Assembly (NCBI GenBank): GCA_934095845.1
Contig: CAKOKS010000001.1
Coordinates: 89,060 to 153,059, forward strand
From: an uncultured Bacilli bacterium
Lineage (GTDB): Bacteria > Bacillota_I > Bacilli_A > RF39 > UBA660
Direction: 5' to 3'
Length of the DNA stretch: 64,000 bases
Part shown: positions 4,181 through 36,790 of the stretch, piece by piece
Layout: every line of letters begins with the position of its first letter
Numbering within the stretch: position 1 is the first letter of the stretch
Notes under the pieces: model-generated
What the model saw: the letters and a program-made list of their open reading frames with translations, nothing else
Databases searched by the model: none
Told to the model about the DNA's origin: nothing
Program-made: the position numbers and the translations under genes

Positions 4181-4228
4181 TATTTTGTCTTTATTGTATA
4201 ATTATCTATAGAATAGGTGAGTGCGGAT

Positions 4229-5632
4229 ATGAAGAAAAAAATAATTTTTGGAGTAATTATGTTTGTATTAGGAGTAACAGCATCTTATGGAGCTGATTTA
4301 ATATTGGGTGAAGAGGTTAGTTTTAGTAATGGTACATCTAACTTAAAAGCAAATAATGTACAAGATGCAATAGAAGAAATATATAATAAAACAATAGACA
4401 ATTCATCATGTAAAAATGTAAGTGCACCAAAATTAGGTGAAAGCTTAGTTCCAGTAACAATAGAAAATGATGGAACAGTAAAATATGCAGATACATCAAA
4501 AAACTGGTATAACTATTGTGATAAAATATGGGCAAATGCAGTAATACTTGAAGATGGTGCAAGTTATAATGTTGGAGATACAATAAGTGAATCTGATATA
4601 CAATCATATTTTGTCTGGATACCAAAATATAAATATAAATTATGGAATACAGGAACTTCTAGCAAAGGAGTACATGAGATAGAAATAGTGTTTGATGAAA
4701 CAAATACAACGGATATAGAAGGAGTATCATGTAAAACACCAATGATAAGTGGGGAAAGTGGAAACTGTAATAATGGAGAATATATGACACATCCAGCATT
4801 TATAAGTATGAATACAAATGGATTTTGGGTAGGAAAGTTTGAAACAGGTTATAAAAGAGCAACAAGTGCGTCCGCAGCTCAAGTAAATGCAAATGATACA
4901 AGTAAAGTTATAATAAAACCAAATGTATATAGTTGGAGAAACATAAGTGTTTATAATGCGTTCCTAAATTCATATAATTATCAAAGAAATTTAGATTCAC
5001 ATTTGATGAAAAATACAGAATGGGGAGCAGTTGCATATCTTTCACATTCGTTATATGGGAAAGGGTTAGAAATAAATATCAATAATAATTCAAGTTTCAA
5101 GACTGGATATTCAGCATTACCTTCAACGAATCAACAAATATATCCAGGAACAAGTGGAGATGGAGCAACATACAACTCTTCATACAATACAGATATTGGA
5201 TATCTTGCAAGTACAAGTGGAAATATAAGTGGTGTTTATGATATGAGTGGTGGAGCTTGGGAATATGTATCTTCATATATAAGCGGAAAGTTAGGATCTA
5301 GTGGATTTAGTACAACAAATTTAGCAAATTATGATAGTAAGTATTTTGATGTTTATAATGTATCATCAGCAATTAGTACTTACCAATATAGAATTTTAGG
5401 AGATGCCACAGGAGAGATGGGACCATTTAAACAATACTTAGACGGAGACAATAACTCAAGATGGCATTCCAGTTGGTATGGCGACCATTCGGACTTTGTG
5501 GACTCTTCTTTCCCTTGGTTCAATCGAGGCGGGCATTACCCTATTGGCGTGCTTGCGGGGGCTTTCGTTTTCTCTAGGTACACTGGATGGACTAACAGCA
5601 ACGGTGGTTTCCGCCTAGTTCTAACTCCTTAA
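4229..5632 (+). CDS. secreted protein with C-terminal FGE-sulfatase (SUMF1/C-type-lectin fold)-like domain
   Basis: ATG at 4229 lies 7 nt after AGGTGAG; the ORF-track GTG at 4217 is less likely. N-terminal signal peptide MKKKIIFGVIMFVLGVTASYG. FGE-family motifs NTEWGAVAYL, VYDMSGGAWEYV, NRGGHY and a terminal GGFRLV. An extended -10 tgtataat lies at 4196-4203. Confidence 0.6.
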   Translation: MKKKIIFGVIMFVLGVTASYGADLILGEEVSFSNGTSNLKANNVQDAIEEIYNKTIDNSSCKNVSAPKLGESLVPVTIENDGTVKYADTSKNWYNYCDKIWANAVILEDGASYNVGDTISESDIQSYFVWIPKYKYKLWNTGTSSKGVHEIEIVFDETNTTDIEGVSCKTPMISGESGNCNNGEYMTHPAFISMNTNGFWVGKFETGYKRATSASAAQVNANDTSKVIIKPNVYSWRNISVYNAFLNSYNYQRNLDSHLMKNTEWGAVAYLSHSLYGKGLEININNNSSFKTGYSALPSTNQQIYPGTSGDGATYNSSYNTDIGYLASTSGNISGVYDMSGGAWEYVSSYISGKLGSSGFSTTNLANYDSKYFDVYNVSSAISTYQYRILGDATGEMGPFKQYLDGDNNSRWHSSWYGDHSDFVDSSFPWFNRGGHYPIGVLAGAFVFSRYTGWTNSNGGFRLVLTP

Positions 5633-5688
5633 GATATACAATTGTATATCTTTTTTTTGTCAAATAATATAAATATGTGCATATACTA

Positions 5689-5744
5689 TTGACAGTTGAA
5701 TAGTTATTCAACTATAATTAATTCAGTTGAACGATTATTCAACT
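5689..5744 (+). promoter_or_regulatory. cadC promoter with two ArsR/SmtB-type inverted-repeat operators
   Basis: -35 TTGACA at 5689-5694. Inverted repeat gTTGAATAgtTATTCAAc at 5695-5712 fills the spacer, followed by -10 TATAAT at 5713-5718. A second inverted repeat aGTTGAAcgattaTTCAACt lies at 5725-5744. Confidence 0.55.
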
Positions 5745-5755
5745 ATGGAGGAAAT

Positions 5756-6124
5756 ATGAAAGACATTGAAATATGTGATTGCAATGTTATACATGAAGCA
5801 ATTGTTAATCAAACAAAAGAAAAAATGCTTGATAATGATTTTATAAATGAAATATCTTTATTTTTTAAAATATTAGGAGATAATACAAGAGTTAAAATTT
5901 TATTTGCCTTAGATAATAACGAAATGTGTGTTTGTGATATAGCAAATGTTTTAAACATGACTAAATCATCTATATCACATCAATTAAGTTTCTTAAAACA
6001 AAATAACATTGTTAAATGTAATAGGGTTGGTAAAGAAGTTTATTATTCTTTAGATGATGAACATGTTAAAGAAGTATTTGAAGTTGCCATTTCACATATC
6101 AAACATAGAAAGGATAATTTATGA
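5756..6124 (+). CDS. cadC: ArsR/SmtB-family metalloregulator (CadC-like Cd/Pb/Zn sensor)
   Basis: ATG at 5756 lies 5 nt after GGAGG. N-terminal Cys pair (ICDCN) and alpha-4 CVCD metal site. Winged HTH TKSSISHQLSFLK. The stop overlaps the cadA start (ATGA). Confidence 0.8.
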   Translation: MKDIEICDCNVIHEAIVNQTKEKMLDNDFINEISLFFKILGDNTRVKILFALDNNEMCVCDIANVLNMTKSSISHQLSFLKQNNIVKCNRVGKEVYYSLDDEHVKEVFEVAISHIKHRKDNL

Positions 6125-8145
6125 AAAAATATAGATATAATATAAATAATCTTGACTGTGCTAACTGTGCTAGAGAAATAGAAGAACATATGAATTCTTT
6201 AGATGACTTTAATAATGTTGTCGTTAATTTTAGTACTTCAAAAGTTAGCTTTGAAAGTGATAAAAATTATAGCCTTAATGAGCTAAATAAGATTATTACT
6301 TCTGTAGAACCTGATGCATATTTAAGTGAAAATGAAGAAACAGAAAAAAGTGATTTTCATCTTAGTTTGCTTATTGTTGCTGTGTTAACAAGCGTTATTA
6401 CTTATACATCTAATATGCCAGATATTATAAAAACTATTTTATATATTATATGTTATATAATGCTTTTATATAAAACTACAATAAATGCCATTAATCTTTT
6501 GTTTAAAAGTCATACATTAAATGAAAATGCTTTAATAACAATTTCTTGTTTAGGTGCATTTTTTATTGGTGATGTTTTAGAAGGTGTTATGGTTATAGCA
6601 CTTTATACAGTTGGTAAAATTTTAGAAACAAAAGCTATAAATAATTCTAGAAAGTCTATTAAAGATTTGATAAATATTAAACAAAATTATGCTAATCTAC
6701 TTAAAGATGATGAAATAGTTAAAGTTGATGTAGAAAATATTAAAATTGATGATTTAATGGTTGTTAAAGTGGGAGAAAAAATACCGGTGGATGGAGTAGT
6801 TGTAGATGGAAAAAGTTTTTTAGATACATCTTCACTTACAGGTGAATCAGAATCATTATTAGTAAAACAAGGAGATAAAGTTTTATCTGGTTCTATTAAT
6901 GAAAATGATGTTTTAACTATTAAAGCAACAAATGTTTATTCAACTTCAACAGTGTTTAAAATTCTTGAACTTCTTGAAAGCGCAACTGATAAAAAAACTA
7001 AAACTGAAACAGTAGTAGCAAAAATAAGTAAAATTTATACACCAATTATTTTAATATTAGCTGTTCTTTTAGTAATGTTTTTACCACTTATAGGAATAGA
7101 ATTTTATGATGCTCTTTATAGAGGACTTACATTCTTAGTAATATCATGTCCTTGTGCAATAGCCATATCTGTTCCTTTATCTTATTTTACTGGAATAGGT
7201 TTATCTAGTAAAAATGGTATTTTAATAAAGGGTAGTAATTATTTAGATAATTTAAGTAATGCTAAAAATATTATATTTGATAAAACAGGAACAATTACTG
7301 ATGGAACTTTTAAAGTAACTGAAATAGATATTAAAGATAATAATTATACTTTAAAAAGTGTTACTGATATTTTAGTTTTAGGTGAAAGTTTTTCAACACA
7401 TCCAATTGCTAAATCTATTTTAAAATTAAATCACGGTAAAGTTGATAAAAAGAAAGTACTTAATTATAAAGAAAAAAGTGGGGCAGGAATAGAATTTGAT
7501 TATGAAGGTAAACATGTATCAATTGGTAATAAAAAATTATGTGGTTGCTCTTATATTTCAACACTACATTTAAATATAGATGGTAAACATATTGCATCAA
7601 TAAAAATAGATGATGGTATTAAAGATAATGCCGGTGAAGTTATCAAATATTTAAATAAAAAAAACATAAATACTTATATGTTTACTGGAGATAAACGTGA
7701 AGTTGCTACATTTATTGGAAAAAGTGTAGGGATTAAAAATATTGAATCAGAATTATTACCTACAGATAAATTTCATATGTATGAAAATGTATCAAAAAGT
7801 GGTATAACAATTTTTGTTGGAGATGGAATAAACGATGCTCCAGTTTTAAGAAGAGCAGATATTGGTATTTCTATGGGAAGTCTTGGATCTGATGCTGCTA
7901 TTGAAGCTAGTGATATAGTTTTAATAAGTGACGATTTAAGTAAGATTAAATCAGCTATTGAAATATCAAAATATACAAAGAAAATAATAAAAGAAAATTT
8001 AATATTCGCGTGCTTAGTTAAAGCAATAATTCTTTTATTAAGTGTTCTTGGGTTAGCAAATATGTGGTTAGCTGTATTTGCTGATACAGGAGTTACATTA
8101 CTTACAATTTTAAATACTCTTAGAATAATGAAGAAAAAATACTAA
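6121..8145 (+). CDS. cadA: heavy-metal (Cd/Zn) translocating P1B-type ATPase
   Basis: HMA domain with CANC. Signature motifs CPC, DKTGTIT and GDGINDAP. Confidence 0.9.
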   Translation: MKKYRYNINNLDCANCAREIEEHMNSLDDFNNVVVNFSTSKVSFESDKNYSLNELNKIITSVEPDAYLSENEETEKSDFHLSLLIVAVLTSVITYTSNMPDIIKTILYIICYIMLLYKTTINAINLLFKSHTLNENALITISCLGAFFIGDVLEGVMVIALYTVGKILETKAINNSRKSIKDLINIKQNYANLLKDDEIVKVDVENIKIDDLMVVKVGEKIPVDGVVVDGKSFLDTSSLTGESESLLVKQGDKVLSGSINENDVLTIKATNVYSTSTVFKILELLESATDKKTKTETVVAKISKIYTPIILILAVLLVMFLPLIGIEFYDALYRGLTFLVISCPCAIAISVPLSYFTGIGLSSKNGILIKGSNYLDNLSNAKNIIFDKTGTITDGTFKVTEIDIKDNNYTLKSVTDILVLGESFSTHPIAKSILKLNHGKVDKKKVLNYKEKSGAGIEFDYEGKHVSIGNKKLCGCSYISTLHLNIDGKHIASIKIDDGIKDNAGEVIKYLNKKNINTYMFTGDKREVATFIGKSVGIKNIESELLPTDKFHMYENVSKSGITIFVGDGINDAPVLRRADIGISMGSLGSDAAIEASDIVLISDDLSKIKSAIEISKYTKKIIKENLIFACLVKAIILLLSVLGLANMWLAVFADTGVTLLTILNTLRIMKKKY

Positions 8146-18661: not shown

Positions 18662-18979
18662 ATGTTAAAGATTAATTTGGAGTATAGAAAGGGAATATTA
18701 TTTGTAAGATTAAAAGGAAATTTAAACAAGAATACAGCTCAAAAATTTATGGATTACACTTTACCAATTATTGAAGATTATGGAATTAAGTATATGGTAT
18801 ACAATTTAGATGGACTTATGTCAATAGACTCAATTGGAGAAAATGCACTTTTAAGTGGAGGACAAAGTGTTAAAGAAAATGATGGAAGAGTTTTATTAAT
18901 AAATAATCGAGTAAATACATGTTTAAGATTTGATAAAATAACTGATGAATTAGTAGCTTTGGATCTTTTAAAAGTATAG
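18662..18979 (+). CDS. spoIIAA: STAS-domain anti-sigma-factor antagonist (SpoIIAA-like)
   Basis: ATG at 18662 lies after AAGGTGGGTGA. A STAS fold with conserved Ser is present in DSIG. Confidence 0.7.
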   Translation: MLKINLEYRKGILFVRLKGNLNKNTAQKFMDYTLPIIEDYGIKYMVYNLDGLMSIDSIGENALLSGGQSVKENDGRVLLINNRVNTCLRFDKITDELVALDLLKV

Positions 18980-19593
18980 TGTTAGATTTAATAAGTGAAA
19001 ATGAATGGTTAATTTATAGTATTGCTAAAAAGTTTTATAATGTAGAAAGAGAAGACCTTTATCAAGCTGGTTGTTTGGGACTAATAAAAGCAAATAATAA
19101 TTATAAAGAGGAGTTTGGACCTTTTTCAAGTTATGCTTATAAATACATATTTGGGGAAATGTATGAATTATCAGTTAAATGTCGAAATATTAAATTAAAT
19201 AAGTATTATTTGAAACTATATAAACTAATAATAAAAGCTCATAGTTATTTAACACAGGTTTTAAGTAAAGAACCTACATTTGAAGAAATAAGTGAATATA
19301 TTGGGTATCCATCTTCTGAAATTGAGTATGTAAGTATATTATGTGAGGATATGTTTAGTTTGGATGATGAATATCAAAATATACAAGTAGGTGTTAATTC
19401 TATAAATGATGATGATTTACTTTTATCCGAATCAATAGAATCTTTAGACCCAATATCATCTTTAGTAATTAAATATCGTTTTAAAGAAGATATGACACAA
19501 AGTGAAGTTGCTCAAAAACTTGGAATGTCCCAGGTAAAAGTGTCAAGAATTGAAAGTAAAAGTAAAAAACAAATTCTTGAATATATTTCTTAA
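18979..19593 (+). CDS. sporulation-type sigma-70 family factor (SigF/SigG-like), short, 204 aa
   Basis: GTG start overlaps the upstream TAG. Region 2 (LIYSIAKKF...DLYQAGCLGLIKA) and region 4 HTH (MTQSEVAQKLGMSQVKVSRIE) are present. Confidence 0.7.
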   Translation: MLDLISENEWLIYSIAKKFYNVEREDLYQAGCLGLIKANNNYKEEFGPFSSYAYKYIFGEMYELSVKCRNIKLNKYYLKLYKLIIKAHSYLTQVLSKEPTFEEISEYIGYPSSEIEYVSILCEDMFSLDDEYQNIQVGVNSINDDDLLLSESIESLDPISSLVIKYRFKEDMTQSEVAQKLGMSQVKVSRIESKSKKQILEYIS

Positions 19594-19625
19594 AAAATCT
19601 CCATAATATAAATGGAGGTTTTTAT

Positions 19626-20027
19626 ATGGATTATAAAAAATTAGTTGATTCTTTAACTCCTAAAGAAAATAAGTTAAAAAATATATTATATGCATTTATT
19701 TCTGGTGGAGTTATTGGAAGTATTTCAGAGATTCTTGTTAAGTGTTTTCAAGTAGAAAATATGTTAGTTATTTGGATTGTCATTGCTTCAATTTTAACTG
19801 GTGCTCATGTGTTTGATAACATTGTTGAAAAATTTAAAATGGGTGTAATTATTCCAATTACTGGTTTTTCACATTCAGTTACTGCTAGTGAATTAGAATA
19901 TAAAAGTGAAGGATTAATAACTGGTATTGGTTCTAATTATTTTAAGTTAGCTGGAAGTGTAATACTTTATGGAATATTATCAGCAAGTATTCTTGCTTTA
20001 TTGAAAGGACTAATATGGTTACTATAA
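19626..20027 (+). CDS. spoVAC: stage V sporulation protein AC
   Basis: Multi-TM protein of about 130 aa in the SpoVAC/SpoVAEB family, with PITGF and GIGSN motifs. First gene of a coupled triplet. Confidence 0.75.
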   Translation: MDYKKLVDSLTPKENKLKNILYAFISGGVIGSISEILVKCFQVENMLVIWIVIASILTGAHVFDNIVEKFKMGVIIPITGFSHSVTASELEYKSEGLITGIGSNYFKLAGSVILYGILSASILALLKGLIWLL

Positions 20028-20974
20028 AATATAATAATGTGTTTATAAATAATTGGTTTTCAGTATGTGGTGAAGATGAAGCGAATGGAAATATAAAAAA
20101 TGTTAATATGGTTTTAAAAGACTTGTATTACGGAGAAAAAACTTTAGAAGAAGCTGAAATAAAAATGCAAAAAACAGTTCTAAATAACTTATCAAGTATA
20201 AGTGATTTTAACTTGGTTATTGGAGGAAATTTATCTAATCAACTTGGTAGTATGAATGCAAGTTTAAAAAATACAGGTAAATCTTTTTTAGGAGTTTATA
20301 ATGCCTGTGCAAGTTTTGTTGAAGGTATGATTATTGGTGCTAATATGATTTCTTCTAATGAAATTGATAAAACTTGTGTTTTAACTAGTTCTCATGAATT
20401 AACGAGTGAAAGACAATTTAGATTTCCAATAGAATATGGATCTTTAAAAGCAAATTACACAACTATAACAGCAACAGGAAGTGTAGGTGTAATTATTTCA
20501 AATGATAAAACAAAATGTAAAATAGTTTCTTCAACTATTGGCTCAGTTGTAGACTACTCAATAACTGATGTTAATAACATGGGAGCTATAATGGCTCCTG
20601 CTGCTATGAATACAATTATTAATCATTTAAAAAATATGAATAAAAACATCAATGATTATGACATTATATTAACTGGAGATTTAGGTAAACTTGGGTTAGA
20701 AATATTAAAAACGATTCTTTATAAAGAATATAATTTAAAAACTAATAAACTTACAGATGCTGGTTCTATTTTATATAAGGATGAACAAAACAAGTATCAA
20801 GGCGGAAGTGGACCAGTTGTTTTACCATTAGTCTTATTTAATAAAATTTTATTAAGCAAAAAATATAAACATATTCTTATTGTTGGAACTGGAGCATTAC
20901 ATAATACAACTTTAGTTAATCAAAAGAAATCTATTCCAGCAATAGCTCATGCTATAGAAATAGAGGTGCAATAA
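20015..20974 (+). CDS. spoVAD: stage V sporulation protein AD
   Basis: 319-aa thiolase-like fold protein located between spoVAC and spoVAEB. Start overlaps the upstream gene. Confidence 0.75.
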   Translation: MVTIKYNNVFINNWFSVCGEDEANGNIKNVNMVLKDLYYGEKTLEEAEIKMQKTVLNNLSSISDFNLVIGGNLSNQLGSMNASLKNTGKSFLGVYNACASFVEGMIIGANMISSNEIDKTCVLTSSHELTSERQFRFPIEYGSLKANYTTITATGSVGVIISNDKTKCKIVSSTIGSVVDYSITDVNNMGAIMAPAAMNTIINHLKNMNKNINDYDIILTGDLGKLGLEILKTILYKEYNLKTNKLTDAGSILYKDEQNKYQGGSGPVVLPLVLFNKILLSKKYKHILIVGTGALHNTTLVNQKKSIPAIAHAIEIEVQ

Positions 20975-31406: not shown

Positions 31407-31414
31407 AGTTTTAA

Positions 31415-31480
31415 AATCAGCAATTAACCGAACAAAAATCATCAATTAACCGAAAAATAATCAGCAATTAACCGAAAATC
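31415..31480. repeat. three tandem 22-bp direct repeats (aatcaKcaattaaccgaaMaaa)
   Basis: Direct reading: 31415-31436, 31437-31458 and 31459-31480 share the core caattaaccgaa. Confidence 0.6.
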
Positions 31481-31533
31481 TTTGATATTTTCAAATTAAA
31501 TGTGTATAACTAAGTTAATAAGAAGGTATTTTT

Positions 31534-31698
31534 TTGAAAAATTGCAAAAGGAAAATTCAAGATAAAATACTCGAAAAAAAGCTAAAAGGAAAAGGATACT
31601 ATATTAATCGAAGAACCAAAATGGTGTGGAAAAACTACAACAGCAGAGCAAATATTTAAAAGCGTTTTGTATATGGCAAAAAAGGATTTGAAAAATTA
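31534..31698 (+). pseudogene. frameshifted 5' remnant of an AAA-family ATPase (DUF4143-type)
   Basis: Frame 1 reads (M)KNCKRKIQDKILEKKLKGKG. After a +1 shift it reads ILIEEPKWCGKTTTAEQIFKSVLYM (Walker-A-like GKTT), then a stop. Only about 55 aa of a protein normally about 400 aa remain. Confidence 0.5.
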
Positions 31699-31811
31699 AA
31701 AGAGCTATGTGAAAAGTCACATAGTTTTAAATTGCACAAAAAATGTATCTTTTAACTTGCAAAAATCAGTGTAAAATAATTTGTAAAATCGCAAATTTTC
31801 AACAAGAAAAT

Positions 31812-31840
31812 TTGACAATCGGGGGGGGTATTATATACTA
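31812..31840 (+). promoter_or_regulatory. putative sigma-A promoter with G8 homopolymer in the spacer
   Basis: -35 TTGACA at 31812-31817. G8 at 31821-31828. Candidate -10 tatact at 31834-31839 (16-nt spacer). RBS AGAGGAG at 31856-31862, ATG at 31872. Confidence 0.45.
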
Positions 31841-31871
31841 AAAATGTAAAAAAATAGAGGAGTTGTGAACA

Positions 31872-33395
31872 ATGAAAAAGAAAGCAAGTATAGTAATAGC
31901 TGTACTATTATTGGCGGTAGGATTTGCTGCCGTATCGACAACATTGATAATAAACGGAAGTGTGAATATCGGAGAAAATACAGATGACTTTTCTGTAATC
32001 TTTACAAAGGCAACATTAGATGGAACTGATGTATATGCAAATGTAATAGATGATACAAAAAAGATAATTACATTTGAAACAAGTGATTTAAAGACTTTAA
32101 ATCAAACATCAGTATTAAATTATGAAGTAACAAATAATTCAAGTAATTATGATGCTGAAGTGCAAGTAAATTGTAAAACAAAAGAAAATACAACAGCAAA
32201 ATATACAAGTATCAAAAATGAATTAGAAGGAAATGCAACAGTTATAAAAGCAAAAGAAACATTAAATGGAACATTAACAGTAACATTAAACAAGACTGCA
32301 ACTGAGGAAGTAAGAGAAGAGTATATATGTGAACTAACATTTAATGCTGTAGAAAGAGATACAATTGCAGCAAGTGAACCAACTTTATATGATTTAATAA
32401 AGTCTAAAGCAGATACAACAACAGTAATAAATTATAAAGTGCGTTCTGGAGTAAGTGGAACAAATGGAATATATACAACTACTGCAACTAATGGAAACGT
32501 TCCAGTATATTACTATAGAGGAGATGCAGATAAAGTAAATAACAATATAATATTTAATAATATGTGTTGGAAGATAATAAGAACAACAGAAACAGGTGGA
32601 ATAAAGTTAATTTATAATGGAACACCAACAGATGGAAAATGTGAAACTCAAACAGGTGAAAACACTCAAATAGGAACAAACGTATATAATGCTATTTCAA
32701 ATGATAATACATATGTTGGGTATATGTATGGAACAGCAGGAAGTACAACGTATGAAGCAACACATGAAAACAAGAATGAATCAACAATAAAAGCGTATAT
32801 AGATAATTGGTATGGTCAAAATTTTGATGAAACTGCAACAAATAAATTAGAAGATACATTATTTTGTAATGATAGAAGTACAAAAGCATATGATGCAAAT
32901 ACAATAGGAGATACAAAAATGTCATCCTATGGAGCATTAGGATATGGCAAAAATGCAACATTTTATGGAACAGCACATCGAGCATCATATTATTCCAATA
33001 ATCCAAATCCAAGTTTAGTATGTATTCAAAATAACGATAAATTTACAGTGGATAGTAAAAATGGAAACGGAAAACTTAAATATCCGATAGGACTAATAAC
33101 ATTAGATGAAGTAGTACTTGCCGGATTTAATACAAAGTATTCCAATGCAAGTAATTATAAAGATACAACGAATTATTTGTATACAAATAAAGATTATTGG
33201 ACATTTTCTCCTGTTGAGATGGGGTATTATGGTGATGCTTATGTTTTTGTTGGTTTTGTCGATAGTACTGGTCTTGTGAGTGCTGGCTCTGTGGGCTATG
33301 CTCGTGGTGTCCGTCCTGTAGTTTCGCTTGCAGATAGCACACTTGTAAATGCTAATGGAGAAGGAACAAGTACAAATCCATATGTTGTAAAATAA
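31872..33395 (+). CDS. secreted protein with signal-anchor N-terminus and divergent FGE/DUF1566-like C-terminal domain; paralog of 4229-5632
   Basis: N-terminus MKKKASIVIAVLLLAVGFAAVS. C-terminal YPIGLITLDEVVLAG, YWTFSP and GVRPVV parallel the FGE motifs. The 3' end has a raised GC codon bias. Confidence 0.6.
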   Translation: MKKKASIVIAVLLLAVGFAAVSTTLIINGSVNIGENTDDFSVIFTKATLDGTDVYANVIDDTKKIITFETSDLKTLNQTSVLNYEVTNNSSNYDAEVQVNCKTKENTTAKYTSIKNELEGNATVIKAKETLNGTLTVTLNKTATEEVREEYICELTFNAVERDTIAASEPTLYDLIKSKADTTTVINYKVRSGVSGTNGIYTTTATNGNVPVYYYRGDADKVNNNIIFNNMCWKIIRTTETGGIKLIYNGTPTDGKCETQTGENTQIGTNVYNAISNDNTYVGYMYGTAGSTTYEATHENKNESTIKAYIDNWYGQNFDETATNKLEDTLFCNDRSTKAYDANTIGDTKMSSYGALGYGKNATFYGTAHRASYYSNNPNPSLVCIQNNDKFTVDSKNGNGKLKYPIGLITLDEVVLAGFNTKYSNASNYKDTTNYLYTNKDYWTFSPVEMGYYGDAYVFVGFVDSTGLVSAGSVGYARGVRPVVSLADSTLVNANGEGTSTNPYVVK

Positions 33396-33492: not shown

Positions 33493-33519
33493 AAAGCCAC
33501 TTTATTCGTGGCTTTTTTT
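33493..33519 (+). terminator. rho-independent terminator of the 31872 gene
   Basis: Hairpin aaagccac-tttattc-gtggcttt followed by TTTT. It overlaps the gerAB stop. Confidence 0.6.
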
Positions 33520-34452
33520 CTTGTAATTATAATTAAAAATTATGAATATTAATGCTGTTATACCTAATATAAATGGTTCATATTTATACATTGTAATCAT
33601 CGCTACATAATATTTATTTACAAGGCTTGCTAGTATAAATAAAACTGGTACTATGAAATTTATTATTTTTTTATTATTTAAACAATTCTTTATATTATTT
33701 GTTAAATAAAGTAAACTTATTATAATATTAAATAACCATATGAATGACACAAAGTTTTCTATATTTTGAATGAAACCTCCAATTGATATTTTCTTCAATA
33801 ATACATATTCTGGATATCTAATGGATTCAACAAGTGGATATGAAAATATTCCATAAATCATTACACAATCTATTATTAAAAATATAGTTGCCATTGTATA
33901 TGTTTTAAGAATACTTTTATCTTTTTTTTGATTTTCTTTAGTCATAAGTACAATTGAAGTTGATAGAATTGTATAGTTTAATCCTGAAGTTAAAATGTTT
34001 ATTGATTTGGTATTTGAATAAACAAAATTTGATATATCAAAGTAGGGAAGTAAGCAAAATAAAGCAAAAAGATATAAACATATATTTATAATTAATATAA
34101 TATTACTTACTCTATATAAAACTATTTCTTTTTTATTTAAAACATAGAGCATTAAAAGAAGAAGAGGAATACTAATCATTGATTTACTCATTAAATTTAA
34201 ATACATAGTTGATGCCATATTTATTAGAATAACTAAAGCATAAACTGATATAATTGAATAAAGTATGATGTTAAATATATTATTTTTTTTCTTTATATCT
34301 AAAAAATATAAAAGAATCATGCCTAAAATATAACCTATTAAAATAGAGAATAGAAAATTTTCTTTAGAAGAAATAAGTATTTTTGAAAAACCAATTGCTA
34401 GAAATAAACCTTGCATATTAAAAAAGTTAATAATGTTCCATTCTTTTTTCAT
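33502..34452 (-). CDS. gerAB: spore germination protein, GerAB-type permease subunit
   Basis: Polytopic membrane protein, last gene of an A-C-B receptor operon. Start overlaps the gerAC stop. Confidence 0.65.
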   Translation of the reverse strand: MKKEWNIINFFNMQGLFLAIGFSKILISSKENFLFSILIGYILGMILLYFLDIKKKNNIFNIILYSIISVYALVILINMASTMYLNLMSKSMISIPLLLLMLYVLNKKEIVLYRVSNIILIINICLYLFALFCLLPYFDISNFVYSNTKSINILTSGLNYTILSTSIVLMTKENQKKDKSILKTYTMATIFLIIDCVMIYGIFSYPLVESIRYPEYVLLKKISIGGFIQNIENFVSFIWLFNIIISLLYLTNNIKNCLNNKKIINFIVPVLFILASLVNKYYVAMITMYKYEPFILGITALIFIIFNYNYKKKSHE

Positions 34453-35414
34453 TTTATTAAAAGTCCTTTCTTATTTATATGAGTGTTTACTTCAATAGAA
34501 AAATCATAATCGTAAAAGTGTTTATCTAAATTATGATACTTATTTAATAACATATTATTAATTCCTAAAACATCACTTTGGTATTCTTTTAGTTTAGTCA
34601 TTAATGAATAAATATTATTTTCTATTTCTTTATTATATCTTTCTTGTATTTTTTGTACATCTTTTATATTATTTGCTTCTTCTCCTGTAGTAATTTGTTT
34701 AACTGTTGTTTCTAAATCTAAACTTATCTTTATTTTATTTTTTATATCAATTTTTTTATCTATTTTATTTATGCTTAATTCAATATAATTATCTTTACCA
34801 TTTTTTATATAAATTTCATCATAACCAAATATTAGTTTTAAAGTATTAAGTTCATTATTATTTAAAGTACCAACAAATCTATTATCTTTATATAAGTTTA
34901 ATTTACTTACTTTTAAATTTTCATCTAATATTGGTAAAACAAAATCAGTATTTTTATCTTTTAATTTTTTTACAGTTTCAAAGAAATTATCTTTATAAAC
35001 TCTTTCTAATATGTTTTTTAAAGTTTCACCCATGTTTTTTTCTTGATCATAAATATCTGTTTTTTCAGTTATACATAAGTAAAAAGTATTATTAGTTTCA
35101 GGGCTTCTTAAAAAGTAATTTAAAGTTGTTTCAATTGGCGTATTGTTCGTTAAAATGACAGCGTTTAAATGAGCATAATAAAGATATTTACTTGAACCTA
35201 TTAAAGCATTATTAAAAGCATTTGTTAAAGTAGAACCTGTACCAGTATAGGTTTTAAAGTTTTCCTCATCTATTACTTCTAATGTTGTGTAATATAAATT
35301 ATCTTTATAATCAATTAATATTGAAGAAACTATTCCAAGTTCATTTAATTCATGATAGTTTGCACATCCTGTTAAGAAAAATAAACTTATAAGTATTAAA
35401 AATAATTTTTTCAT
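34449..35414 (-). CDS. gerAC: spore germination lipoprotein, Ger(x)C family
   Basis: Lipobox LTGC followed by ANYHELNELGIVSSILID, typical of GerAC-family N-termini. Confidence 0.75.
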   Translation of the reverse strand: MKKLFLILISLFFLTGCANYHELNELGIVSSILIDYKDNLYYTTLEVIDEENFKTYTGTGSTLTNAFNNALIGSSKYLYYAHLNAVILTNNTPIETTLNYFLRSPETNNTFYLCITEKTDIYDQEKNMGETLKNILERVYKDNFFETVKKLKDKNTDFVLPILDENLKVSKLNLYKDNRFVGTLNNNELNTLKLIFGYDEIYIKNGKDNYIELSINKIDKKIDIKNKIKISLDLETTVKQITTGEEANNIKDVQKIQERYNKEIENNIYSLMTKLKEYQSDVLGINNMLLNKYHNLDKHFYDYDFSIEVNTHINKKGLLIK

Positions 35415-36790
35415 GGAGCCTCCTTATATCTATTTTTACTTAGTAATTTACTTCTTTTTTTTGTTTTCATTTTAAATAAGGTTTGTTTTATATAAGTAAA
35501 ATCAAATGGAGATAAAGGATAAAAATATGGTTTATTAAATACTTCATAACTGGTAAGTGAAGTAAATAATGCGATTATAGCGATTCCTATACCAAATAAA
35601 CCATAAATAGAAGCAATAAATAAAAAGAAAAATCTCCAATGTCTTATGGAATTAATTACCTCTAAATCAGTAAATATTAAACTTGATATGAATGTTATAG
35701 CAACAATTATTATCATTATAGGTGAAACTATACCGGCGGAAACAGCTGCTTCTCCTAAAACAAGAGCGCCTAAAATAGAAGTTGCTGAACCATAATTTGA
35801 TGGAAACCTTATATCACTTTCTCTTAATATTTCACATATTATTAAAGTAACGATACATTCAACTACGGCAGGGAAAGGTACTTTACTTCTTTGTTCTTGA
35901 AAGTTAATTAATATAGTTGTTGGTATAGTTTCTTGATTATAAGTTGTAATTGCAATATATATTGCTGGTGTTAGGATAGCTAAAAAGAAACAAAAAAATC
36001 TTAAAACTTTTATAAAATTAATATTTATGGCTTTTTCATAATGATCGGCAATTGGGTTAATAAAATCGGCTAAGAATGATGGAACGATTAAGGCGTCACT
36101 TGAATTATCTAAAATAATTACTATTTTTCCTTCTAAAAGGGCAGAAGCTACTACATCAGGTCGTTCAGTTAATTTAAATGCCGGGAATGGATTAGTTGAT
36201 TTATCACCTAAGTATTTTTTTAATTGGTTAATGTCATTTACTCCATCACGATCAATACTTTCTAATTTTTTTATTACGTTTTCAAATATTTCTTTTTCAG
36301 CAATTGAATCAATATATAAAACACTTGCCATATTTTTAGTATATCTTCCAATATAAATATCTTTGTTTTTTAGGTCTTTAGATTTTATTCTTCTTTTAAT
36401 TAATCCTAAATTAACTTGATAATTTTCTATAAATGATTCTTTTGGTCCATATATTGTTCCTTCAGTATTAGGAGTAGATATACTTCTTGATAAGTTACCC
36501 CTAGTTTCAACTGCTATTACTTGATGTCGGTTGATTATTATAGTAAAACCAGATTCAAGATATAAACTTAATGTGTCATAGTCAGATACATCTTTTATAT
36601 TCGGACTTGGAATAAGTTCTTTTATATTTCTTGGAATATGACTTTTAGGAATTATTTTTAAAATATAATCATTTATTTTATCTTGATCAATAATAGATTC
36701 TAAATAAATAATATAGATATTTTTTATTTTTTTTATGTTTAAATCTGTAATGTTTTCATAATCAGTTTTTATTTTTTTTAAATAATCCAT
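35411..36790 (-). CDS. gerAA: spore germination protein, GerAA-type subunit
   Basis: GerA-family soluble N-domain (STPNTEGTIYGPKESFIENYQVNLGLIKRRI) with C-terminal TM helices. Confidence 0.8.
   Translation of the reverse strand: MDYLKKIKTDYENITDLNIKKIKNIYIIYLESIIDQDKINDYILKIIPKSHIPRNIKELIPSPNIKDVSDYDTLSLYLESGFTIIINRHQVIAVETRGNLSRSISTPNTEGTIYGPKESFIENYQVNLGLIKRRIKSKDLKNKDIYIGRYTKNMASVLYIDSIAEKEIFENVIKKLESIDRDGVNDINQLKKYLGDKSTNPFPAFKLTERPDVVASALLEGKIVIILDNSSDALIVPSFLADFINPIADHYEKAININFIKVLRFFCFFLAILTPAIYIAITTYNQETIPTTILINFQEQRSKVPFPAVVECIVTLIICEILRESDIRFPSNYGSATSILGALVLGEAAVSAGIVSPIMIIIVAITFISSLIFTDLEVINSIRHWRFFFLFIASIYGLFGIGIAIIALFTSLTSYEVFNKPYFYPLSPFDFTYIKQTLFKMKTKKRSKLLSKNRYKEAP

What the first reader, a model, noticed from the sequence alone, without database searches (positions are those of the whole stretch)
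31812..33395. G8 homopolymer inside the promoter spacer of a secreted-protein gene: candidate phase-variation switch
In a roughly 27% G+C genome, the only G-run of four or more bases outside coding sequence (and the longest anywhere) in the window is 8 G at 31821-31828. It sits exactly between a consensus -35 (TTGACA, 31812-31817) and the best -10 candidate (tatact, 31834-39, spacer 16). It is about 45 bp upstream of the RBS and ATG of a signal-peptide protein with an FGE/DUF1566-like C-terminal domain. Gain or loss of one G by slipped-strand mispairing would change the spacer between 15, 16 and 17 nt, which is the classic mechanism of promoter-strength phase variation (for example Neisseria porA and opa). 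A Sec-secreted lectin-fold protein is the kind of target usually subject to phase variation.
Basis: partly seen in the sequence, partly recalled or inferred. Interest (0 to 1): 0.7.

Follow-up and report, generated by a model that had tools for sequence, protein, structure and literature searches.

The report
Conserved poly-G promoter of surface-protein family
The run of eight G's is real. It is a strictly conserved, naturally length-variable part of a promoter shared by a large family of secreted binding proteins in uncultured human-gut Bacilli. These proteins are also rewritten by a reverse-transcriptase mutagenesis system, so the microbe may combine on/off-type switching with protein hypermutation, although switching itself has not been shown.

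Summary
TTGACA (31812-17), a 16-nt spacer containing G8 (31821-28), TATACT (31834-39), an RBS and ATG 31872 are all present. G8 is the longest G/C run in the window, with about 0.02 expected by chance.

It is not a one-off. The 28-nt core TTGAMA-ATC-G8-TATWATAWAMT sits upstream of about 100 genes for related secreted proteins in uncultured gut Bacilli. One assembly carries at least 10 copies, and the flanks of the core are unalignable.

Tract lengths across 95 trustworthy loci are G8 x86, G7 x4, G9 x3 and G6 x2. Among 22 contigs taken from seven groups, each group encoding one identical protein, two carry G9. Among close strains these are the only 1-nt indels, against none at 51 A/T runs of 7 or more.

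The tract is therefore selected and slippage-prone. This fits a promoter-spacer contingency switch (spacer 15/16/17). However, the strong G8 mode and the lack of read or transcript data leave real switching unproven.

An unexpected result: the gene's 3' end (33204-33325) is a DGR (diversity-generating retroelement) variable region. A paralog with the same G8 promoter sits next to a complete DGR (template repeat, Avd-position ORF, reverse transcriptase). No part of that machinery is in the window.

Verdict: a new variant of a known kind, of moderate to high interest.

The parts
31770..31789 (+). Two direct TGTAAAAT boxes (31770-77 and 31782-89). A TGTAAA(C) motif recurs about 20 nt upstream of the -35 in most paralogs. 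Possible regulator or UP-like site, function unknown.
   Evidence: Read. Moderately conserved column block 'TGTAAAC' in the anchored consensus and in alignment A2.
31793..31813 (+). Imperfect inverted repeat AAATTTTC-N5-GAAAATTT that overlaps the first two bases of the -35. Possible operator; partly conserved in the TATACT promoter subclass.
   Evidence: Read. Similar TTTTCAACAGAAAA in L006, L009, L014 and L036. Inference only.
31812..31817 (+). -35 hexamer TTGACA (TTGAAA in most paralogs).
   Evidence: Invariant TTGA.A in A2 and in about 19 of 30 protein-selected paralog upstreams.
31818..31833 (+). 16-nt promoter spacer ATC-G8-TATTA.
   Evidence: The whole spacer is conserved across paralogs, which is unusual for sigma-A/sigma-70-type spacers.
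31821..31828 (+). G8 homopolymer, the candidate slipped-strand site.
   Evidence: Lengths across 95 trustworthy family loci: G8 x86, G7 x4, G9 x3, G6 x2. G8/G9 polymorphism occurs at two loci that encode identical proteins.
31834..31839 (+). -10 hexamer TATACT (TAAAAT in most paralogs, same register).
31856..31862 (+). Ribosome-binding site AGAGGAG, 9 nt before the ATG.
   Evidence: Read.
31872..33395 (+). CDS of 507 aa. It has an N-terminal signal peptide or membrane anchor (residues 1 to about 23, MKKK + hydrophobic + GFA/A), an Ig-like beta-sandwich (about 40-160) and a C-terminal DUF6273-like ligand-binding domain (about 170-507). It belongs to a family with more than 4,600 database relatives.
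   Evidence: ORF; 4,694 hits; AF2 pLDDT 70-94 only for residues 41-160; generic beta-sandwich matches, none at E<=1e-3; DUF6273 in 13 of 34 homologs. Signal peptide is inferred from the sequence.
33204..33325 (+). DGR-type variable region (VR). It is A-depleted: 8% A in the 100 nt from 33231, against a window mean of 40%. Across the family it shows NNT codons whose first two positions are hypervariable.
   Evidence: most A-poor 100 nt of the whole window, z=-4.9; column counts; against the TR of L011: 24 of 34 mismatches at TR adenines versus 11 of 84 elsewhere, p=2e-9.
33493..33515 (.). Bidirectional terminator-like hairpin shared with the convergent ger operon.

Best explanation
The G8 run is the spacer core of a sigma-A-type promoter cassette, TTGAMA-ATC-G8-TATWATAWAMT. 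Uncultured spore-forming gut Bacilli (relatives of 'Firmicutes bacterium CAG:582') place this cassette in front of many dispersed genes for secreted or surface-anchored proteins.

The window's gene is one of these. It is a positional ortholog held between ffh and a gerA-type operon. Its C-terminal lectin-like domain carries a DGR variable region.

Proposed mechanism: slipped-strand mispairing at the G tract during replication adds or removes one G. That changes the -35/-10 spacing between 15 (G7), 16 (G8) and 17 nt (G9), and so changes transcription of that family member independently of the others. This would be a contingency locus, or 'volume control'. G8 (16 nt) is the prevailing, probably active state; G9 is probably as strong or stronger; G7 and G6 are probably weak or off.

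Shown: the sequence anatomy, conservation of the cassette, tract purity, natural length polymorphism, and DGR-target status.

Inferred: that these hexamers are the promoter, that tract length changes expression, and that variation is frequent and adaptive.
For: 1. Conservation. About 19 of 30 paralog upstream regions chosen only by protein similarity carry the same core with G8 or G9, while their flanks are unalignable. An anchored consensus of 70 distinct loci and alignment A2 show an island of invariance running exactly from the -35 to just past the -10.
2. Purity. 95 pure tracts against 3 interrupted or replaced ones (L046, L117, L038). Every one of the 80 G/C runs of 8 or more in 780 kb of related low-GC DNA lies in this cassette.
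3. Slippage in nature. G6 to G9 are all seen. At two loci, contigs that encode the identical protein and have identical flanks differ only by G8 versus G9 (L156/L157; L159-162/L163). Among close strains these are the only 1-nt indels in about 34 kb of aligned same-protein sets: 2 of 5 G8 sites against 0 of 51 A/T runs of 7 or more (p=0.006).
4. Locked variants keep workable spacing: L038 has a 16-nt non-G spacer, L046 has 17 nt, L117 has 18 nt.
5. One assembly holds at least 10 cassettes (9 G8, 1 G7). One MAG holds at least 9 (8 G8, 1 G9). So individual family members differ in tract length.
6. Precedent. G8 tracts in Campylobacter jejuni mutate at 1e-4 to 1.6e-3 per division with an insertion bias (PMC8355987). 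Promoter-spacer tracts control porA and opc (references in PMC5084427).
7. The targets are surface ligand-binding proteins that are also diversified by a DGR. That is the class of gene expected to be under fluctuating selection.
Against: - Length is strongly modal: 86 of 95 loci are G8, none is G10 or longer, and 20 of 22 same-protein contigs are G8. All copies of the window's own locus are G8. Classic contingency loci show broader length spreads.
- Assemblies are consensus sequences, so no within-population heterogeneity has been seen.
- A 16-nt and a 17-nt spacer are both usually functional, so G8 to G9 may change expression only modestly.
- The hexamer match itself is at chance frequency in this AT-rich window, and no transcription start is known.
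- The two G9 calls come from contigs of low or unknown coverage (L157 has coverage 7.5), so assembly error cannot be fully excluded.
- Whether the organism has mismatch repair is unknown; no mutS or mutL was found among the window ORFs I scanned.
Confidence: 0.5

Rival explanations
1. The G tract is a fixed-length, sequence-specific promoter element. It could be a contact for a family-specific regulator or for RNA polymerase, or a rigid G/C spacer that makes the promoter activator-dependent. The cassette would then define a co-regulated surface-protein regulon. The occasional G7 or G9 variants would be mildly deleterious slippage, not an evolved switch.
For: Near-invariant length (86 of 95 G8) and invariant flanking ATC and TAT. 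The same cassette fronts several different protein architectures of 200, 283, about 400, about 505 and about 720 aa, as a regulon signal would. Upstream TGTAAA(C) motifs and an inverted repeat over the -35 hint at protein binding.
Against: No known factor binds such a site, and nothing here identifies one. A sequence-specific site would be safer if it were not a slippage-prone homopolymer. Variants with an interrupted or replaced tract persist in front of ORFs that read on: 408 aa in L046, and open to the contig end in L038. Length variants reach consensus frequency at about 9% of loci.
Confidence: 0.3
2. The G8 is a passenger. The promoter, 5' UTR and signal-peptide block is homogenised among paralogs by gene conversion (concerted evolution). 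The tract and its length are then copied around with no function of their own beyond filling the spacer.
For: The 5' UTR and signal-peptide coding sequence are also very similar among paralogs and fall into a few mix-and-match classes. Many contigs break at this repeated block. Within 90% clusters, most differences lie in the signal peptide and N-terminal domain and appear in contiguous runs, which suggests recombination.
Against: The upstream edge of conservation coincides exactly with the -35 hexamer in all classes, whatever the 5' UTR class. That points to selection on promoter function rather than to conversion tracts. The cassette is kept at one orthologous locus (ffh-gene-ger) in species whose proteins are only about 75% identical.
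Confidence: 0.12
3. Chance occurrence or a sequencing or assembly artefact.
For: Poly-G can be miscalled. One metagenome project (VOFC01) shows only G6, G7 or an interrupted tract, together with broken ORFs, which is typical of error-prone assemblies.
Against: The same G8 appears in four independent assemblies of this locus and in about 85 further loci from many projects and assemblers. Chance expectation is about 0.02 per window.
Confidence: 0.02

Closest known systems
Mycoplasma hyorhinis vlp system (variable lipoprotein multigene family with a poly-A tract between the -35 and -10 of each gene)
   Same: A multigene family of surface proteins. Each copy has its own highly conserved promoter, 5' UTR and signal-peptide block, with a homopolymer in the promoter spacer, so each copy could be switched independently. 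The host is a low-G+C member of the Bacilli/Mollicutes radiation. Basis: my own knowledge of Yogev, Citti, Rosengarten and Wise; only the Rosengarten & Wise references were seen here (PMC11868660).
   Different: Here the tract is poly-G of 8, not poly-A of about 17-20. Tract length is almost uniform across copies. The proteins are not lipoproteins with tandem repeats; they are Ig-like plus lectin-like proteins with a DGR variable region. The host carries spore-related genes (GerA-type germination operon, SpoVAD). No switching has been demonstrated.
Neisseria meningitidis porA (poly-G) and opc (poly-C) promoter-spacer tracts; Bordetella fim poly-C; Haemophilus hifA/B TA repeats
   Same: A G/C homopolymer lies between the -35 and -10, and one-nucleotide slippage grades expression through spacer length (references van der Ende 1995 and Sarkari 1994, listed in PMC5084427).
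   Different: Those are single loci in Gram-negative pathogens with tracts of 9-15 and wide length variation between isolates. Here there is a shorter tract and a fixed modal length. It is one cassette repeated at 10 or more loci per genome in a gut commensal known only from metagenomes.
Campylobacter jejuni poly-G contingency loci
   Same: A low-G+C genome in which long G/C runs are confined to a specific set of surface-related loci. In C. jejuni, G8 tracts are mutable with an insertion bias (PMC8355987), which matches the G8/G9 pairs seen here.
   Different: Most Campylobacter tracts are inside coding sequences and centre on G9-G10. C. jejuni lacks functional mismatch repair; the status here is unknown.
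Diversity-generating retroelements with remote targets (Treponema denticola TvpA, Legionella LdtA; survey in PMC5758913)
   Same: The gene downstream of the G8 has a C-terminal variable region with adenine-specific differences from a template repeat. A paralog sits in a complete cassette: VR, TR, an Avd-position ORF, RT and a MutS-like ORF. The DUF6273 domain is a reported DGR target.
   Different: The window itself has no TR, Avd or RT. The VR is stable across samples. The number of candidate remote targets per genome (more than 8) would exceed the maximum of seven cited in PMC5758913. That survey never uses the word 'promoter', and my searches found no paper linking DGR targets to a homopolymer promoter.

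Membership tests
Simple-sequence-repeat contingency locus (promoter-spacer type) | Homopolymer or short repeat located between the -35 and -10 elements of a promoter | tested here: met
   G8 lies in the 16-nt spacer between TTGACA and TATACT. The hexamers and register are conserved in paralogs. The promoter is predicted, not mapped.
Simple-sequence-repeat contingency locus (promoter-spacer type) | Tract length varies between and within strains at a rate far above background | tested here: inconclusive
   Between strains: G8/G9 at 2 of 5 same-protein loci against 0 of 51 A/T runs of 7 or more, and G6-G9 across 95 loci. However, 86 of 95 are G8, and no read-level (within-population) data are available.
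Simple-sequence-repeat contingency locus (promoter-spacer type) | Tract length changes expression reversibly | not testable with these tools
   Needs reporter fusions, RT-qPCR or transcriptomes of length variants.
Simple-sequence-repeat contingency locus (promoter-spacer type) | Controlled gene encodes a surface or host-interaction determinant | tested here: met
   N-terminal signal/anchor sequence, Ig-like domain, and a DUF6273-like domain with a DGR variable region.
Diversity-generating retroelement target gene | Variable region at the 3' end that differs from a template repeat almost only at TR adenines | tested here: met
   L011 paralog against its own TR: 23 of 34 mismatches at A positions, 6 of 82 at non-A positions (p=6e-11). 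Window VR against that TR, which comes from another species: 24 of 34 against 11 of 84 (p=2e-9). Caveat: no TR from the window's own genome was available, and the alignment scoring did not penalise mismatches at TR adenines.
Diversity-generating retroelement target gene | Cognate TR, reverse transcriptase and accessory gene in the same genome | tested here: inconclusive
   Absent from the 64-kb window. Present in related genomes: L011 has a TR at 4722-4838, a 128-aa ORF in the Avd position that has no Pfam hit, an RT with RVT_1 at 5e-19, and a MutS_I-like ORF. L085 has a bAvd hit and an RT. The rest of this genome could not be searched.
Diversity-generating retroelement target gene | Ongoing diversification (VR differs among otherwise identical genes) | tested here: not met
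   The window protein is identical in at least four samples, and the 98%-identical allele has the same VR. In five of six 90% clusters the VR is not the main variable region; one cluster shows two VR alleles. Diversification is therefore rare or past at this locus.
Pfam DUF6273 / Lcl_C (DUF1566) lectin-like domain | Significant match to the family HMM | tested here: inconclusive
   The window protein has no Pfam hit at E<=1. 13 of 34 close homologs hit DUF6273 (best E 6e-6) and one hits Lcl_C at 0.07. A shorter paralog hits DUF6273 at 5e-24. The AF2 model of the C-terminal domain failed, with pLDDT below 50.
Invertible-promoter or shufflon-type phase variation | Inverted repeats flanking the promoter, with a nearby site-specific recombinase | tested here: not met
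   No convincing flanking inverted repeats. Neighbouring genes are dnaE, ffh and the ger operon.

The most novel reading that the evidence does not exclude
Uncultured spore-forming gut Bacilli run a two-layer surface-variation system. The first layer is a family of 10 or more dispersed lectin-fold proteins whose binding sites are rewritten by one or two DGRs acting in trans. The second layer is a separate hypermutable poly-G 'dial' in a shared promoter cassette in front of each copy. Together these would let a population vary both which paralogs are expressed and what each one binds. This coupling of slipped-strand promoter switching with DGR hypermutation did not turn up in my literature searches.
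Probability: 0.3. Interest if true: 0.8.

Novelty: new variant of a known kind. Interest (0 to 1): 0.62.

Why it matters
Phase variation through promoter homopolymers is known mainly from a handful of pathogens and mycoplasmas. Here the same design appears as a family-wide, strictly conserved cassette in abundant but uncultured human-gut commensals, seen in Hadza and other cohorts. It is attached to genes that are also DGR targets.

If the tract really tunes expression, it gives a simple, sequence-readable marker of which surface-protein paralogs are active. That marker could be read directly from metagenomic reads across hosts and over time. It would also link two independent diversification mechanisms in one gene family.

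Even if the tract is a fixed regulatory signal instead, it defines a previously unrecognised surface-protein regulon and a promoter signature for an unstudied lineage.

Tried and rejected
- Pfam and NCBIfam on the window protein gave nothing useful. A PDB profile search gave nothing.
- The AF2 model built from 34 close homologs was confident only for the N-terminal beta-sandwich. A Foldseek search against PDB gave only generic Ig-like matches, none at E<=1e-3. The C-terminal fold therefore could not be confirmed structurally.
- Rfam and tRNA scans of the window found no hits, so the intergenic region holds no known RNA.
- Invertible-promoter idea: no flanking inverted repeats.
- Paralogs, TR, RT or Avd in the window: none.
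- Cassette in viral contigs: none, so it is not phage-borne.
- Seven VOFC01 loci (six G6/G7, one interrupted) were discarded. That assembly also has frameshifted ORFs and altered A-runs.
- Pairs of loci with at least 97% identical flanks within the pattern-scan set: 23 pairs, none differing in tract length. Variation was seen only after same-protein look-ups.
- Three same-protein look-ups (P0111, P0110, P0124) and two others (P0079, P0085) landed on paralogs with a different promoter that lacks the G tract (…TTGTATAMT…AGAATGGTGTGTG…). They gave no tract data.
- Sporulation-sigma consensus sequences were compared by eye with the cassette and did not fit. This was from memory, not a formal test.
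- The literature search found no description of this cassette or of CAG-582 biology.
Full report
**1. The observation.** The sequence is as described.
- TTGACA is at 31812-17, followed by the spacer ATC-GGGGGGGG-TATTA (G8 at 31821-28), then TATACT at 31834-39. The spacer is 16 nt.
- AGAGGAG is at 31856-62 and the ATG at 31872. The ORF runs to 33395 and encodes 507 aa.
- The window is 24.4% G+C. G8 is the longest G/C run, and a first-order Markov model expects about 0.02 such runs per window.
Non-coding G4 runs also exist at 57570-87. The promoter match is not significant by itself: 10 sites in the window match at least 11 of 12 positions, against 10.1 expected.

**2. It is a family-wide cassette, not a single curiosity.**
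- The protein has more than 4,600 relatives in public metagenomes, mostly human gut.
- A scan of one genome per species found 40 loci in only about 10 genomes, labelled 'uncultured Bacilli bacterium' and 'Firmicutes bacterium CAG:582'. One MAG held at least eight copies.
- Of 30 upstream regions chosen by protein similarity alone, about 19 carry TTGA(C/A)A-ATC-G8-TAT(T/A)ATA(A/T)A(A/C)T, while everything upstream of the -35 is unalignable.
- A DNA-pattern scan of metagenome contigs that allowed any tract of 5-19 nt added about 80 more loci.
- An anchored consensus of 70 distinct loci shows an island of near-invariance from the -35 to a few bases past the -10. Part of that set was selected with the pattern, so its hexamers are fixed by construction. 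The protein-selected set is the unbiased one.
- In 780 kb of related low-GC DNA, all 80 G/C runs of 8 or more lie in this cassette.
- The cassette fronts several architectures that share the N-terminal MKKK…GFAA(I/V)STTLIING segment: 283, about 400, about 505 and about 720 aa proteins. It also fronts a 200-aa membrane-anchored protein and a few others.
- It is absent from viral contigs.

**3. Does the tract vary?**
- I excluded seven VOFC01 contigs, whose ORFs are frameshifted and whose A-runs are also altered.
- The remaining 95 loci are G8 x86, G7 x4, G9 x3 and G6 x2. None is G10 or longer. Three further loci have an interrupted or replaced tract but keep a spacer of 16-18 nt (L038, L046, L117).
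- Exact-protein look-ups gave 22 independent contigs in seven same-protein sets. Twenty are G8 and two are G9.
- L157 differs from L156 and L158, and L163 differs from L159-162, essentially only by the extra G.
- Across about 34 kb of aligned same-protein sets, these are the only 1-nt indels among close strains: 2 of 5 G8 sites against 0 of 51 A/T runs of 7 or more (p=0.006).
- The tract is therefore the most indel-prone site in these loci, as expected for G8. In Campylobacter, G8 tracts mutate at 1e-4 to 1.6e-3 per division with an insertion bias (PMC8355987).
- Against a highly active switch: every copy of the window's own locus is G8, the G8 mode is strong, and assemblies cannot show minority variants.

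**4. What the gene is.**
- The neighbours are dnaE, a small membrane protein and ffh upstream, and a convergent gerA-type operon downstream. The same ffh-gene-ger arrangement, with the same cassette, occurs in related species whose protein is about 75% identical. This is a stable orthologous locus.
- AF2 gives a confident beta-sandwich only for residues 41-160, and its matches in PDB are generic.
- The C-terminal half matches DUF6273 in 13 of 34 homologs. A shorter paralog matches at 5e-24.
- The last part of the gene (33204-33325) is the most adenine-poor 100 nt of the whole window: 8% A against 40%, z=-4.9. Across 39 distinct family sequences it consists of NNT codons with hypervariable first and second positions. 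This is the signature of a DGR variable region.
- In L011, a paralog driven by the same G8 promoter is followed by a template repeat in which 25 of 29 variable positions are A. After that come a 128-aa ORF in the Avd position (no Pfam hit), a reverse transcriptase (RVT_1, 5e-19) and a MutS_I-like ORF.
- VR/TR mismatches in L011 are 23 of 34 at TR adenines and 6 of 82 elsewhere (p=6e-11). The window's VR against that TR, which comes from another species, gives 24 of 34 and 11 of 84 (p=2e-9). The alignment scoring did not penalise mismatches at TR adenines, which favours this pattern somewhat.
- A second DGR (bAvd plus RT) follows a G8-driven 283-aa gene in L085.
- The window contains no TR, Avd or RT. 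The VR is stable among strains; only one of six 90% clusters shows two VR alleles. The window gene is therefore a remote, rarely rewritten or former DGR target.

**5. Mechanism and rivals.**
- Best explanation (0.5): a slipped-strand promoter-spacer switch or rheostat, with G7/G8/G9 giving spacers of 15/16/17 nt, acting separately on each family member.
- The key argument is the purity of the tract. Flanking non-functional positions have diverged to saturation, yet 95 tracts are pure and only three are interrupted. Each G is therefore selected. A simple need for a 16-nt spacer does not explain that.
- What cannot be separated here is selection for mutability from selection for a G-specific contact by a regulator or by RNA polymerase (rival 1, 0.3). 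The strong G8 mode, the invariant ATC and TAT flanks, and the upstream TGTAAA(C) motif keep that rival alive.
- Concerted evolution of the 5' block (0.12) explains the uniformity but not the sharp boundary at the -35.
- Artefact is excluded in practice (0.02).

**6. Comparison with known systems.**
- In function it most resembles the Mycoplasma hyorhinis vlp family and the porA, opc and fim promoter tracts (references).
- It differs in four ways: it is a short tract with a strongly modal length, it is one cassette repeated at 10 or more loci per genome, it is in a gut commensal lineage that carries spore-related genes, and it is attached to DGR targets.
- A large DGR survey never mentions promoters and reports at most seven non-adjacent targets (PMC5758913).
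- My searches found no paper linking DGR targets to homopolymer promoters.

**7. Verdict.** The feature is real, conserved and mutable. It is best described as a new variant of promoter-spacer contingency control, with expression switching unproven. Interest is 0.62.

Noticed in passing
window 33204-33325 (3' end of the finding's gene): An A-depleted DGR-type variable region with NNT codons. Related loci carry the full DGR: L011 has a TR at 4722-4838, an Avd-position ORF at 5014-5400, an RT at 5360-6295 and a MutS_I-like ORF at 6361-6843. L085 has bAvd at 1233-1628 and an RT at 1612-2739. No TR or RT is in the window.
   Followed up: yes
window 4217-5632 (+), especially 5471-5600: A second secreted protein (471 aa). 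Its C-terminus (…RGGHYPIGVLAGAFVFSRYTGWTNSNGGFRLVLTP) looks like an FGE-sulfatase/C-type-lectin DGR target, with a weak PF03781 hit at 0.004. Its 3' end is the second most A-depleted stretch of the window (12% A). The 766-aa G8-driven paralog in L118 ends in a similar domain. No TR was found in the window, and there is no G-tract promoter.
   Followed up: partly
window 31413-31478: Three tandem copies of a 22-nt unit (AAAATCAGCAATTAACCGAACA) lie just after the ffh terminator. The copy number varies between strains: 3 in the window and L001-L003, 2 in L164, 1 in L004. Function unknown.
   Followed up: partly
window 31770-31813; family loci upstream of the -35: A conserved TGTAAA(C) motif lies about 20 nt upstream of the -35 in both the G8 promoters and the G-less 'class B' promoters, where it forms the palindrome TGTAAAC-N-TTTACA. 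In the window an 8-nt inverted repeat, AAATTTTC-N5-GAAAATTT, overlaps the -35. Possible regulator sites.
   Followed up: no
L007, L016, L018, L035, L037, L139-L144, L166-L168, L172-L176 (upstream of family genes): About a third of family members use a different conserved promoter without a G tract (…AAAATATTGTATACTT(A/G)…TATAGAATGGTGTGTG…). Some family genes are the second gene of an operon (L148-L155). Only part of the family is under the poly-G cassette.
   Followed up: partly
L178 versus L177 and L169, 5' UTR about 12 nt before the ATG: A one-G difference (GTAGGAAAT versus GTAGGGAAAT) in the purine-rich RBS region separates contigs that encode the same or a nearly identical protein. A similar GG/GGG difference is seen among paralogs.
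   Followed up: no
window 18979-20974 and 33502-36790: A sporulation-type sigma factor next to spoVA genes (SpoVAD hit at 1e-86), and a gerA/gerB/gerC-type germination operon. This 24% G+C, apparently small-genome gut lineage therefore carries spore-formation and germination genes.
   Followed up: partly
window 31500-31730: The 475-nt ffh-gene intergenic region contains short ORF fragments. One is a 58-aa ORF called in L164 at the matching position. There is also a terminator-like hairpin on the minus strand (31724-31705). This may be a gene remnant.
   Followed up: no
L135, L138, L113, L116, L072, L092 (metagenome contigs): The exact cassette also occurs in front of genes outside the core family. 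L138 encodes a protein with a TasA/camelysin-like N-terminus (judged by eye). L135 encodes an ABC substrate-binding lipoprotein on what looks like a higher-GC contig. It is unclear whether these reflect a wider lineage distribution, transfer or chance.
   Followed up: no
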